This document shows, piece by piece, positions 30,946 to 31,302 of a DNA stretch of 64,000 bases. Below the pieces are notes generated by a model, which had not been told where the DNA came from, did no database searches, and saw nothing but the letters and a program-made list of their open reading frames with translations. The stretch comes from an uncultured Alphaproteobacteria bacterium. GTDB taxonomy: Bacteria > Pseudomonadota > Alphaproteobacteria > RF32 > CAG-239. The stretch's first letter is position 1, and each line of letters begins with the position of its first letter. A program made the translations under genes and the position numbers. The DNA lies in contig CALXWA010000004.1 of the NCBI GenBank assembly GCA_944392275.1, positions 93,408-157,407 of the forward strand, written 5' to 3'.

Positions 30946-30989
30946 TTGCAGAAAAAAAACAAAAAGCTATTATAGAACAAAATAAGAAC
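30946..30989 (+). promoter_or_regulatory. sigma70-like promoter plus alphaproteobacterial LexA (SOS) box
   Basis: TTGCAG-N16-TATTAT (30946-30973) directly abuts GAAC-AAAATAA-GAAC (30975-30989), 20 nt upstream of the umuD'-like ATG. Confidence 0.65.
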
Positions 30990-31008
30990 ATTTACCAAGG
31001 AGAAACAA

Positions 31009-31302
31009 ATGAGCTTCGGGTCTCCGGCCGCAGATTATGTTGAAAACAAATTGGATCTCAACCGTTTTTTAATCCGTAACAACCCCGCAACCTTTTTTTT
31101 GCGAATGGATAACAACAACTTTGCCAAAGAGGGCATTTTTCAAGATGATATCTTGATTGTTGACCGCAGCCTCCCGCCACAACCAGGCAAATGGATCATC
31201 ACGGAATCAGAGAATGGTTTCCAATTATCTCGTTATCAAAAACCTTTTAGCACGCAAAAGCTTTTTTGGGGGAGAGTAACTTCGGTTATTCGTAAATTTT
31301 AA
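31009..31302 (+). CDS. UmuD'-like protein, N-terminally truncated, catalytic dyad absent
   Basis: MSFGSPAADYVENKLDLNRFLI... aligns by eye with E. coli UmuD from Gly25 (GFPSPAADYVEQRIDLNQLLI). It lies 2 nt upstream of umuC. Confidence 0.8.
   Translation: MSFGSPAADYVENKLDLNRFLIRNNPATFFLRMDNNNFAKEGIFQDDILIVDRSLPPQPGKWIITESENGFQLSRYQKPFSTQKLFWGRVTSVIRKF

What the first reader, a model, noticed from the sequence alone, without database searches (positions are those of the whole stretch)
30946..31302. Genetically pre-cleaved, catalytically dead UmuD' homologue under an alphaproteobacterial SOS box
The 97-aa ORF starts MSFGSPAADYVENKLDLNRFLI. By eye this aligns with E. coli UmuD from Gly25 (GFPSPAADYVEQRIDLNQLLI), the first residue of RecA*-processed UmuD'.

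An in-frame TAG at 30973-30975 lies upstream, and no alternative start codon lies between it and the ATG. An N-terminal arm therefore cannot be encoded.

The Ser60 motif SGDSM is replaced by DNNNF (Asn37). The Lys97 position (TVKKL) reads QLSRY (Ser74). About 19 residues of the C-terminal sheet are missing.

The gene lies 2 nt upstream of an intact umuC and behind TTGCAG-N16-TATTAT plus GAAC-N7-GAAC (30975-30989). The implication is that Pol V activation here has lost the autoproteolytic checkpoint and is controlled only transcriptionally through LexA.
Basis: partly seen in the sequence, partly recalled or inferred. Interest (0 to 1): 0.65.

Follow-up and report, generated by a model that had tools for sequence, protein, structure and literature searches.

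The report
Ready-made, protease-dead mini UmuD' gene
A gut alphaproteobacterium encodes the helper subunit of its error-prone DNA polymerase V already in the "activated" short form, with the self-cutting machinery gone. This is a conserved chromosomal variant of a trick so far documented in phage P1 (HumD).

Summary
ORF 31009-31302 (97 aa) is a true UmuD homologue whose Met1 sits one residue before the Gly25-equivalent of RecA*-processed E. coli UmuD'. Asn37 and Ser74 replace the Ser60/Lys97 dyad. No N-terminal arm can be encoded. An intact umuC starts 2 nt downstream. An exact GAAC-N7-GAAC box abuts the -10 hexamer.

It is not a decaying gene:
- It belongs to a family of "MSFGSPA..." proteins (94-123 aa) in uncultured gut Alphaproteobacteria.
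- The family is syntenic, always followed by umuC, and under purifying selection.
- Promoter and operator are conserved in nine orthologous upstream regions.

The missing ~20 residues are an internal beta-hairpin (UmuD ~102-124), and the C-terminal strand is kept. "Only transcriptional control" is overstated, because UmuC keeps its RecA-binding C-terminal extension.

Genetic pre-truncation is known from phage P1 HumD, which keeps Ser/Lys and has no umuC partner. Among 209 homologues, none of 34 arm-less proteins keeps the dyad, against 141 of 158 with an arm. This is a new variant of a known kind. Function and LexA binding are inferred, not shown.

The parts
30946..30951 (+). -35-like hexamer TTGCAG of the umuD'C promoter
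   Evidence: Read from the sequence. It matches only 3 of 6 positions of TTGACA, so the consensus scan did not call it. The TTG is invariant at this position in 9 orthologous upstream regions.
30968..30973 (+). -10 hexamer TATTAT, 16 nt after the -35
   Evidence: the T, A and final T are invariant across orthologues. One strain carries 30973 T>C.
30975..30989 (+). GAACAAAATAAGAAC, an exact GAAC-N7-GAAC direct repeat and putative LexA operator. It starts 1 nt after the -10 and therefore covers the expected transcription start.
   Evidence: exact match. AGAACAAAA..AGAAC is invariant at -33/-34 from the ATG in window, L001, L005-L010, L026, L086 and L089. It is also present at -19 from the assumed start before the canonical umuD of L059. 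Strain variants change only the spacer (30983 T>C). The motif is published as GTTC-N7-GTTC for Alphaproteobacteria (PMC8565304; PMC12700426).
30997..31002 (+). Shine-Dalgarno AAGGAG, 6 nt before the ATG
   Evidence: Sequence. A purine-rich GGAG/GAGG is present at the same place in the orthologues.
31009..31302 (+). umuD'-like gene encoding a 97-aa, genetically pre-truncated, dyad-less, hairpin-less UmuD' homologue
   Evidence: Purifying selection is shown.
31009..31065 (+). Residues 1-19: N-terminal arm MSFGSPAADYVENKLDLNR, equivalent to UmuD' 25-42
   Evidence: This is the most conserved part of the family. M1 S2 F3 G4 S5 P6 A7 D9 L15 D16 L17 N18 are invariant in A2. It is disordered in the AF2 model, with pLDDT below 50. 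In the published Pol V model the UmuD' arm inserts next to the UmuC active site (PMC11791011).
31117..31119 (+). Codon 37 (Asn), at the position of the UmuD Ser60 nucleophile
   Evidence: Gapless alignment to UmuD/UmuD'. This position is N, R, A, V, E, T or S across the family.
31228..31230 (+). Codon 74 (Ser), at the position of the UmuD Lys97 general base
   Evidence: The position is S, C, V, L, Q, G, I or R across the family.
31240..31245 (+). Junction K78/P79, where about 20 residues (UmuD ~102-124, the beta5-beta6 hairpin) are absent
   Evidence: Alignment A1. The AF2 model has strands 28-32, 48-52, 62-67, 70-75 and 85-94 only.
31305..32549 (+). umuC, a 414-aa Y-family polymerase with a 2-nt gap after umuD', so probably translationally coupled
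   Evidence: Pfam IMS, IMS_HHH, IMS_C and DUF4113 (1-51 of 51). The NCBIfam UmuC subfamily is the best hit at 326 bits. The catalytic motifs DCDNFF and SIDEAF are present. The C-terminal tail KREFKSPNFTTSWLDLPKVN is conserved in orthologues.

Best explanation
The ORF is a functional gene for a naturally "pre-activated" UmuD' subunit of DNA polymerase V. It is co-transcribed and probably translationally coupled with umuC, from a promoter whose start region is covered by an alphaproteobacterial LexA operator.

Proposed mechanism (all steps inferred unless marked otherwise):
1. DNA damage activates RecA*, and LexA cleaves itself.
2. The TTGCAG-N16-TATTAT promoter is derepressed and a bicistronic umuD'-umuC mRNA is made.
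3. The 97-aa protein is translated. Met1 is removed because residue 2 is Ser. This leaves S-F-G-S-P-A-A-D-Y in the same register as G25-F-P-S-P-A-A-D-Y of RecA*-cleaved E. coli UmuD'.
4. The arm and a reduced five-strand beta core bind UmuC. In the published model the arm goes into the palm/little-finger cleft and the UmuC C-terminal tail lies on the core.
5. RecA-ATP is still recruited through the RecA-NT motif in the UmuC C-terminal extension.

Shown directly by the sequence: the autoproteolytic checkpoint (N-terminal 24 residues, scissile bond, Ser60, Lys97) has been lost genetically. An internal beta-hairpin has also been lost.

This state is ancestral to a clade of gut Alphaproteobacteria and is maintained by selection.
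For: Homology and register:
- establish the homology and the register.
- AF2 and Foldseek give UmuD' (1umu, 1ay9; TM 0.68-0.71) as the best fold match.

Family:
- One search found 107 homologues. The closest ~25 clusters all start MSFGSPA, are 94-123 aa long, and lack the Ser and usually the Lys.

Synteny and operon:
- The order RNase HII, LD-carboxypeptidase, umuD', umuC, peroxiredoxin, Na/H exchanger is conserved in species whose UmuD'-like proteins are only 53-57% identical.
- An intact umuC lies directly downstream in all 11 pre-truncated loci checked, counting the window itself.
- GC content is flat at about 0.40, so there is no sign of an island.

Selection:
- L086 versus L088 gives dN/dS = 0.10. 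All pairs with unsaturated dS give 0.24 or less. The one comparable umuC pair gives 0.07.
- Among strains there are 7 synonymous changes and 1 conservative change (I48V) in the ORF.

Regulation:
- The exact GAAC-N7-GAAC box is conserved as a phylogenetic footprint together with the -35 TTG and the -10.
- The same operator precedes a canonical full-length umuD in a related gut alphaproteobacterium (L059).
- The only other exact box in the 64 kb sits 3 nt before the ATG of a second Y-family polymerase gene.

Precedent:
- P1 HumD begins MGFPSPAADY in the same register. It is annotated as complementing UmuD' and as LexA-regulated.

Importance of the arm and exact N-terminus for Pol V:
- PMC11791011.

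Retained RecA and UmuD' binding region in UmuC:
- together with PMC6511836.
Against: - There is no functional, binding or expression data.
- The only RNA evidence is one 232-nt metatranscriptome contig inside umuC, which could be DNA carry-over.
- No lexA or recA gene lies in the window, and the rest of the genome was not available.
- The -35 is weak, and the generic promoter scan does not call the promoter.
- Scores are below the curated cutoffs of both specific NCBIfam models (72.6 of 110 for the UmuD subfamily; 66.5 of 120 for HumD).
- The hairpin deletion removes about one fifth of the UmuD' core. It could impair dimerisation or UmuC binding. AF2 was run on the monomer only.
- The protein diverges somewhat more than its neighbours (53-57% identity, against 57-64% for UmuC and 67-83% for LdcA).
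Confidence: 0.75

Rival explanations
1. The ORF is a decaying umuD pseudogene remnant. Its 5' end, catalytic residues and a hairpin have been lost, it no longer contributes to Pol V, and umuC works alone or is itself on the way out.
For: Three separate losses relative to canonical UmuD. Scores lie below the curated NCBIfam cutoffs. The protein is somewhat more diverged than its neighbouring genes.
Against: - The same architecture, with an invariant MSFGSPA start, a Shine-Dalgarno site and tight spacing to umuC, is kept across species whose synonymous sites are saturated.
- dN/dS is 0.10-0.24.
- Within-species variation is 7 synonymous to 1 conservative change, with no frameshift or stop in four independent assemblies.
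- The core folds confidently, with pLDDT 85-90.
Confidence: 0.05
2. The protein is functional but is not a Pol V activator. It acts as a non-cleavable UmuD-like polymerase manager or inhibitor, for example restraining UmuC, DinB or the replicase as full-length UmuD2 does in E. coli.
For: It lacks the dyad, so it can never change state. A second, partner-less Y-family polymerase with the same operator lies 12 kb away and could be a target.
Against: - The protein starts exactly where active UmuD' starts. It lacks the N-terminal 24 residues that distinguish the inhibitory UmuD form.
- The most conserved segment is the UmuD' arm, which in the Pol V model lies at the UmuC active site and is needed for mutagenesis.
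- P1 HumD, in the same register, complements UmuD' (annotation; McLenigan 1999, cited).
Confidence: 0.08
3. The gene product works as UmuD', but the GAAC-N7-GAAC repeat is not a LexA site. It could be chance, or the site of another regulator, so expression is not SOS-controlled.
For: The count of boxes in the window is no higher than expected (2 against 1.43). No lexA gene is in the window. There are no induction data.
Against: - The box is invariant in nine diverged orthologous upstream regions while the flanks vary. Strain polymorphisms hit only the spacer.
- Both exact boxes in the 64 kb lie immediately 5' of the window's two identified Y-family polymerase genes.
- The motif equals the published alphaproteobacterial LexA motif.
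Confidence: 0.1
4. The true start lies upstream, through a non-canonical start, read-through or an assembly error, so a cleavable arm is in fact made.
For: One strain has TAG changed to CAG at 30973. A gene caller then predicts a 118-aa product from the TTG at 30946 (P0292).
Against: - That TTG is the -35 hexamer itself.
- The 21 added residues (LQKKNKKLLQNKIRTFTKEKQ) are the translated promoter and operator. They have no Cys/Ala-Gly site and no similarity to UmuD arms.
- The dyad needed to cut is absent in any case.
- Four independent assemblies agree, and orthologues have stops 3-14 codons upstream.
Confidence: 0.02

Closest known systems
Bacteriophage P1 HumD (NCBIfam NF051876; McLenigan et al. 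1999, J Bacteriol 181:7005)
   Same: - It is genetically pre-truncated and begins M-G-F-P-S-P-A-A-D-Y in exactly the same register as MSFGSPAADY (42% identity over residues 1-78).
- It lies behind a LexA site.
- It is reported to substitute for UmuD' (annotation; title).
   Different: - HumD is an orphan phage gene with no umuC partner.
- It is 129 aa long and keeps the hairpin region.
- In the BLASTP alignment to UmuD it keeps Asp-Ser at the Ser60 position and Lys at the Lys97 position.
- The window protein scores 66.5 bits against the HumD model, whose cutoff is 120.
- The window gene is chromosomal, in an operon with its own umuC, and lacks both the dyad and the hairpin.
E. coli UmuD' (RecA*-processed UmuD; PDB 1UMU, 1AY9, 1I4V)
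   Same: - It gives the best sequence hit (E = 7e-12, gapless over 77 residues) and the best fold hit (TM about 0.7).
- Both share the same N-terminal arm motif, the DLN helix and the C-terminal strand.
- Both sit in an operon with umuC under LexA control.
   Different: - UmuD' is produced post-translationally from a 139-aa precursor by Ser60/Lys97 self-cleavage at Cys24-Gly25 on RecA*.
- In the window protein the precursor part, the scissile bond, Ser60 and Lys97 are absent, and residues ~102-124 are deleted.
Bacillus subtilis YolD/YqjX accessory proteins of YqjW/UvrX
   Same: According to PMC6511836 and PMC12926913, these are small, non-proteolytic accessory subunits. Each consists of an N-terminal arm plus an SH3-like beta core, and is encoded next to a UmuC-like polymerase under SOS control. 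Functionally, the 97-aa protein has converged on that layout.
   Different: YolD/YqjX belong to a separate sequence family (PF08863) and are predicted to act as monomers. The window protein is a bona fide S24/UmuD homologue.
Canonical alphaproteobacterial and other full-length UmuD (e.g. L059 UMGS241, L014, L017, L021)
   Same: L059 has the same operon, and the same GAACAAAACAAGAAC operator lies upstream of it.
   Different: These keep a 20-70-aa arm, the (S/Q/P)A-G scissile site, G(D/N)SM and TVK(R/H).

Membership tests
Peptidase S24 (LexA/UmuD self-cleaving proteases) | Sequence and fold homology to the S24 catalytic/dimerisation domain | tested here: met
   Pfam PF00717 scores 29.8 bits against a cutoff of 23.3. 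By Foldseek the best match is UmuD', followed by LexA C-terminal domains.
Peptidase S24 (LexA/UmuD self-cleaving proteases) | Serine nucleophile (UmuD Ser60) | tested here: not met
   Asn37 aligns with Ser60 in a gapless alignment. The position is variable across the family.
Peptidase S24 (LexA/UmuD self-cleaving proteases) | Lysine general base (UmuD Lys97) | tested here: not met
   Ser74 aligns with Lys97. The position is variable across the family.
Peptidase S24 (LexA/UmuD self-cleaving proteases) | Scissile Ala-Gly or Cys-Gly bond preceded by a removable N-terminal segment (definition as in PMC8565304) | tested here: not met
   Met1 directly precedes the Gly25-equivalent residue. An in-frame stop lies 12 codons upstream with no start codon in between.
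UmuD'-type accessory subunit of Pol V | N-terminal arm motif (G/S)F(P/G)SPAxDY...LDLN in the register of processed UmuD' | tested here: met
   These residues are invariant in the family.
UmuD'-type accessory subunit of Pol V | Encoded next to, and upstream of, a UmuC that carries the C-terminal extension (RecA-NT motif plus UmuD'-binding tail) | tested here: met
   There is a 2-nt gap. UmuC matches DUF4113 over 1-51 of 51. The arrangement is conserved in all pre-truncated loci checked.
UmuD'-type accessory subunit of Pol V | Score above the curated cutoff of NCBIfam NF007621 (Pol V autoproteolytic subunit) | tested here: not met
   The score is 72.6 bits against a cutoff of 110, and only residues 3-78 match.
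UmuD'-type accessory subunit of Pol V | Forms a dimer, binds UmuC and supports damage-induced mutagenesis | not testable with these tools
   Only a monomer model could be made. Multimer modelling and experiments are needed.
HumD family (NF051876) | Equivalog-level similarity (120 bits or more) | tested here: not met
   The window protein scores 66.5 bits. P1 HumD itself scores 221.5 bits.
HumD family (NF051876) | Translation starts at the Gly25-equivalent residue (pre-processed form) | tested here: met
Alphaproteobacterial LexA (SOS) regulon member | GTTC-N7-GTTC / GAAC-N7-GAAC direct repeat overlapping the promoter | tested here: met
   An exact repeat lies at 30975-30989, 1 nt after the -10. 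It is conserved in the orthologues.
Alphaproteobacterial LexA (SOS) regulon member | A lexA gene in the genome, LexA binding, and induction by DNA damage | not tested
   No S24 or LexA homologue other than the ORF itself lies in the 64-kb window. The rest of the genome is not available. No informative RNA data were found.

The most novel reading that the evidence does not exclude
A 97-residue "minimal UmuD'", made of the arm plus a five-strand core, is sufficient to build an active Pol V with its cognate UmuC. Loss of the RecA*-cleavage checkpoint follows a recurrent route seen independently in several phyla: first the arm is lost, then the Ser/Lys dyad, then the beta5-beta6 hairpin. On this reading the hairpin would be a module needed only for the precursor or cleavage state. 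These gut bacteria would then deploy mutagenic Pol V immediately on LexA derepression, without the built-in delay known from E. coli.
Probability: 0.4. Interest if true: 0.6.

Novelty: new variant of a known kind. Interest (0 to 1): 0.5.

Why it matters
In E. coli, the slow RecA*-dependent cleavage of UmuD is the textbook safety catch that delays mutagenic Pol V until late in the SOS response. Here a whole clade of gut Alphaproteobacteria has removed that catch from its chromosome and kept the rest of the system.

This matters in four ways:
- It shows that the checkpoint is evolutionarily dispensable outside phages.
- It provides a natural minimal UmuD', with no dyad and no beta5-beta6 hairpin. 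This delimits what Pol V actually needs from its accessory subunit, which is useful for structural work on the still unsolved Pol V mutasome.
- It predicts faster access to mutagenic lesion bypass after damage in abundant but uncultured gut bacteria.
- It flags an annotation problem. Database names such as "autoproteolytic subunit" or "LexA family transcriptional regulator" are wrong for these proteins.

Tried and rejected
1. The HumD paper (PMC94175) is not held. HumD properties were therefore taken from the P1 GenBank annotation, its translated sequence and my own alignment.
2. A literature search with generic phrases ("naturally truncated", "pre-processed") returned only irrelevant papers. 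I found no paper describing chromosomal pre-truncated umuD'-umuC operons, but the search was shallow.
3. The generic sigma-70 scan did not call the proposed promoter. I kept the promoter on the strength of its conservation.
4. A profile search of all six-frame ORFs in the window found no LexA or other S24 protein.
5. The look-up of window gene 11199-12062 was not on record. The look-up of 51102-53657 gave only glycosyltransferase context.
6. On RNA evidence, one metatranscriptome holds a 232-nt contig in umuC and nothing over umuD' or the 5' end. This is uninformative.
7. I considered that the deleted hairpin might be the RecA*-docking surface. This is not supported. The published RecA*-UmuD contacts are Y52, L54, F94, D91, E93 and F18, none of which lies in residues 102-124. 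Only the statistical association with dyad loss remains.
8. The pseudogene, upstream-start and non-LexA readings were considered and ranked low (see rival explanations).
9. dN/dS between the window and its nearest species is not computable because dS is saturated. I used the L086/L088 pair and within-species polymorphism instead.
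Full report
**1. What is in the sequence**

The ORF 31009..31302 (+) encodes 97 aa starting MSFGSPAADYVENKLDLNRFLI. An AAGGAG Shine-Dalgarno site at 30997-31002 lies 6 nt upstream.

The in-frame TAG at 30973-30975 is real. 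The 11 codons between it and the ATG hold no ATG, GTG or TTG. The stop TAA at 31300-31302 is followed after 2 nt by the ATG of a 414-aa ORF.

That ORF is a UmuC-type Y-family polymerase:
- It has Pfam IMS, IMS_HHH, IMS_C and a full-length DUF4113 match.
- Its best NCBIfam hit is the UmuC subfamily at 326 bits.
- The catalytic DCDNFF and SIDEAF motifs are present.

Upstream lie TTGCAG (30946-51), a 16-nt spacer, TATTAT (30968-73), and one nucleotide later GAACAAAATAAGAAC (30975-89).

**2. Is it UmuD, and in which register?**

- Pfam Peptidase_S24 is above its gathering cutoff (29.8 against 23.3 bits).
- phmmer against the PDB gives UmuD' and UmuD as the top hits (E = 7e-12). Query residues 2-78 align to UmuD 25-101 without a gap.
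- In that alignment Ser60 corresponds to Asn37 (SGDSM / DNNNF) and Lys97 to Ser74 (TVKK / QLSR). Both dyad residues and the Cys24-Gly25 bond are therefore absent.
- An AlphaFold2 model built on 18 family members has a confident core (pLDDT 85-90 for residues ~25-97) and a disordered arm (residues 1-19).
- Foldseek finds UmuD' (1umu, 1ay9; TM 0.68-0.71) and RecA-bound UmuD (8gmt) first, followed by LexA and lambda cI C-terminal domains.
- The model has five strands (28-32, 48-52, 62-67, 70-75, 85-94).
- The multiple alignment shows that the missing ~20 residues form an internal block between K78 and P79. This block corresponds to UmuD ~102-124, a beta-hairpin. The C-terminal strand (WGxVTSVIRK) is kept.

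**3. It is a conserved family, not a one-off**

*The family.* The homology search returned 107 proteins. The closest ~25 clusters are 94-123 aa long and all begin MSFGSPA. M1 S2 F3 G4 S5 P6 A7 D9 L15 D16 L17 N18 G42 I43 D47 L49 D52 R53 G88 V93 R95 are invariant in the 18-member alignment A2.

*Two sub-types exist:*
- 114-123-aa proteins with the hairpin. The Ser60 position reads GDAM, GDAL, GDVL or GNAL, and the Lys97 position is usually Arg.
- 94-104-aa proteins without the hairpin, to which the window protein belongs.

*Taxonomy and habitat.* In species-representative genomes the pre-truncated form is found in uncultured gut Alphaproteobacteria (L005-L010, L026). These include Candidatus Scatocola faecigallinarum. 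The window sequence itself recurs in chicken, bird and other gut metagenomes from at least five studies.

*Ancestral state.* A related gut alphaproteobacterium (L059, UMGS241) still has a canonical UmuD. It has an arm, an SA-G site, GDSM and TVKH, and sits behind the same operator. This gives the ancestral state.

*Synteny.* Three species whose UmuD'-like proteins are only 53-57% identical to the window's share the order LD-carboxypeptidase, umuD', umuC, peroxiredoxin, Na/H exchanger. RNase HII lies further upstream, and in L089 a sulfatase gene intervenes before umuD'. GC content is flat. The locus is therefore chromosomal and vertically inherited. An intact umuC directly follows in every pre-truncated locus examined. 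Its conserved C-terminal tail ...KREFKSxxFTTSWxxLPxV is also present in lineages with canonical UmuD.

**4. Selection**

Between species dS is mostly saturated. Where it can be computed, dN/dS is 0.10 (L086/L088) to 0.24, and the one comparable umuC pair gives 0.07.

Within the species, assemblies from independent runs and studies show no indel in the ORF or leader. They carry seven substitutions that are all synonymous (31051, 31053, 31119, 31146, 31197, 31233, 31254) plus one conservative I48V.

One strain carries 30973 T>C, which turns the upstream TAG into CAG. The frame then opens only back to TAA at 30940. The sole start codon in that stretch is the TTG of the -35 hexamer, and a gene caller duly predicted a 118-aa product (P0292). 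The added residues are the translated promoter and operator. The upstream stop is therefore not itself selected, as expected for an untranslated leader.

**5. Regulation**

Counting alone does not make the box significant (2 matches against 1.43 expected). The consensus scan misses the promoter because TTGCAG matches only 3 of 6 positions.

Context decides the matter:
- In nine orthologous upstream regions the flanks diverge, but AGAACAAAA..AGAAC, the -35 TTG and the -10 T-A...T are invariant. The box lies at a fixed -33/-34 from the ATG.
- Strain polymorphism touches only the spacer (30983 T>C).
- The only other exact match in the 64 kb (43551-43565, reading GTTC-N7-GTTC on the + strand) ends 3 nt before the ATG (43568) of a second Y-family polymerase. 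That protein has IMS and IMS_C domains but no DUF4113.
- GTTC-N7-GTTC is the published LexA motif of Alphaproteobacteria (PMC8565304; PMC12700426).

I therefore regard LexA control as likely. It is not shown: no lexA gene lies in the window, and RNA data are uninformative.

**6. How it most likely works**

*Shown by sequence:*
- The precursor segment, scissile bond, nucleophile and general base are absent.
- The UmuD' arm, the DLN helix and the C-terminal strand are kept.
- The gene is tightly linked to an intact umuC with its RecA-NT/UmuD'-binding extension.

*Inferred:*
- LexA derepression yields a bicistronic mRNA.
- Met1 is removed, following the general MetAP rule for a penultimate Ser (my own knowledge). 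The N-terminus then lies in the register of Gly25.
- The arm inserts near the UmuC active site, as in the published Pol V model. In that work an armless UmuD' is inactive, and even single N-terminal residue changes matter (PMC11791011).
- RecA-ATP is still recruited through the UmuC RecA-NT motif (PMC6511836).

The UmuD-cleavage checkpoint is thus gone, but "only transcriptional control" is too strong.

From general knowledge, ClpXP removal of UmuD' in E. coli uses full-length UmuD as the adaptor. Without a precursor that route would also be missing, so switch-off would rest on LexA re-repression and other proteolysis. This is inference.

**7. Comparison with what is known**

Phage P1 HumD is the precedent for genetic pre-truncation. 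It starts MGFPSPAADY in the same register, has a LexA site, and is annotated as complementing UmuD'.

The differences from HumD are:
- HumD has no umuC partner.
- It is 129 aa long and keeps the hairpin.
- In BLASTP against UmuD it keeps Asp-Ser at position 60 and Lys at position 97.
- The window protein scores far below the HumD model cutoff (66.5 against 120 bits).

In layout (arm plus small beta core, no protease) the window protein resembles the unrelated YolD/YqjX partners of Bacillus UmuC-like polymerases.

**8. Wider pattern**

I classified 209 UmuD homologues. The sample is biased toward relatives of the query, so these figures show an association and do not count independent events.

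| N-terminal segment before Gly25-equivalent | Proteins | Keep Ser+Lys | Lack the hairpin |
|---|---|---|---|
| More than 15 residues | 158 | 141 | 5 |
| 2 residues or fewer | 34 | 0 | 16 |

Several arm-less or short-arm, dyad-less, hairpin-less forms with different N-termini occur in other lineages. Examples are MGFPSPA, MAFNSHA, MADYTGFPSPA, Melainabacteria L046 and Caldisericia L075. This suggests recurrent loss.

The published RecA*-UmuD contacts do not lie in the hairpin, so its role remains unexplained.

**9. Verdict**

The feature is a real, selected, lineage-wide variant of a known principle (HumD-type pre-activated UmuD'). It is newly seen as a chromosomal umuD'C operon with complete loss of the protease apparatus and a trimmed core.

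Public annotations call family members "LexA family transcriptional regulator", "umuD1" or "DNA polymerase V", without noting the pre-truncated state.

Interest is moderate at 0.5. The finding is useful for Pol V structure-function work and for understanding how the mutagenesis checkpoint evolves, but it is not a new kind of system.

Noticed in passing
window 43551-44728: A second exact SOS-type box (GTTCTACTCTTGTTC on the + strand) ends 3 nt before ATG 43568 of a second Y-family polymerase. That protein is 386 aa with IMS and IMS_C domains, no DUF4113 or RecA-NT tail, and no umuD-like partner. The listed ORF start at 43496 is probably too far upstream. The two exact boxes in the window each precede one of the two Y-family polymerase genes identified in it.
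   Followed up: partly
L011, L013, L016, L020, L022-L025, L027, L029, L032, L034-L040, L045, L047-L049, L051, L053, L056, L057, L072, L083 (Chitinophagaceae / Bacteroidota): A large clade of UmuD homologues keeps a ~28-aa N-terminal arm, with the junction reading ...(A/K)NAT|GFGAAADDY. Ala stands at the Ser60 position (GDAM/SDAM) and Arg at the Lys97 position (LVRR). These look like full-length but catalytically dead UmuDs. How, or whether, they are processed is unclear.
   Followed up: no
P0108, P0110-P0120, P0124, P0130 and others: About 25 representative clusters of 245-300 aa contain two UmuD-like domains in tandem. In P0108 and P0110 the first copy has the arm, cleavage site and dyad, and the second lacks the FPSPA arm. 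These may be single-chain UmuD dimers.
   Followed up: no
L046 (Melainabacteria) 2926-3297; L075 (Caldisericia); P0122, P0133, P0167, P0174, P0201, P0203: Short-arm or arm-less UmuD homologues with different N-termini occur in other lineages; L046 is Melainabacteria and L075 is Caldisericia. All have lost at least one dyad residue and also lack the internal hairpin. L046 is followed by umuC. This suggests that the same reduction has happened independently more than once.
   Followed up: partly
L015 (Candidatus Caedibacter acanthamoebae plasmid) 2938-3345: This plasmid UmuD has a ~20-aa arm and a TA|GFPSPA junction. It has TDAM at the Ser60 position and SVRR at the Lys97 position, so the dyad is dead. 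It is followed by umuC with a 4-nt overlap.
   Followed up: no
L059 (UMGS241) 2866-3345: A related gut alphaproteobacterium keeps a canonical cleavable UmuD (SA|GFPSPA, GDSM, TVKH). It sits behind the same GAACAAAACAAGAAC operator, which shows the likely ancestral state of the locus.
   Followed up: partly
window 30973: The strain polymorphism T>C (run X7) converts the upstream in-frame TAG to CAG and also changes the last T of the -10 hexamer. An automatic gene call in that strain gives a 118-aa product (P0292) starting at the TTG of the -35 hexamer.
   Followed up: yes
window 32542-32549: The 3' end of umuC overlaps the 3' end of the convergent 1-Cys peroxiredoxin gene (32542..33234, - strand) by 8 nt. 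No terminator-like hairpin was found between them.
   Followed up: no
window 27895-29034 (-): A CcrM-like N6-adenine DNA methyltransferase (N6_N4_Mtase plus a C-terminal RAMA domain) supports an alphaproteobacterial origin. It lies next to RNase HII and two Ppx/GppA genes.
   Followed up: no
window 40013-43009 (-): A 998-aa autotransporter with Chlamydia polymorphic-membrane-protein repeats and a C-terminal beta-barrel lies immediately upstream, on the opposite strand, of the second Y-family polymerase gene.
   Followed up: no
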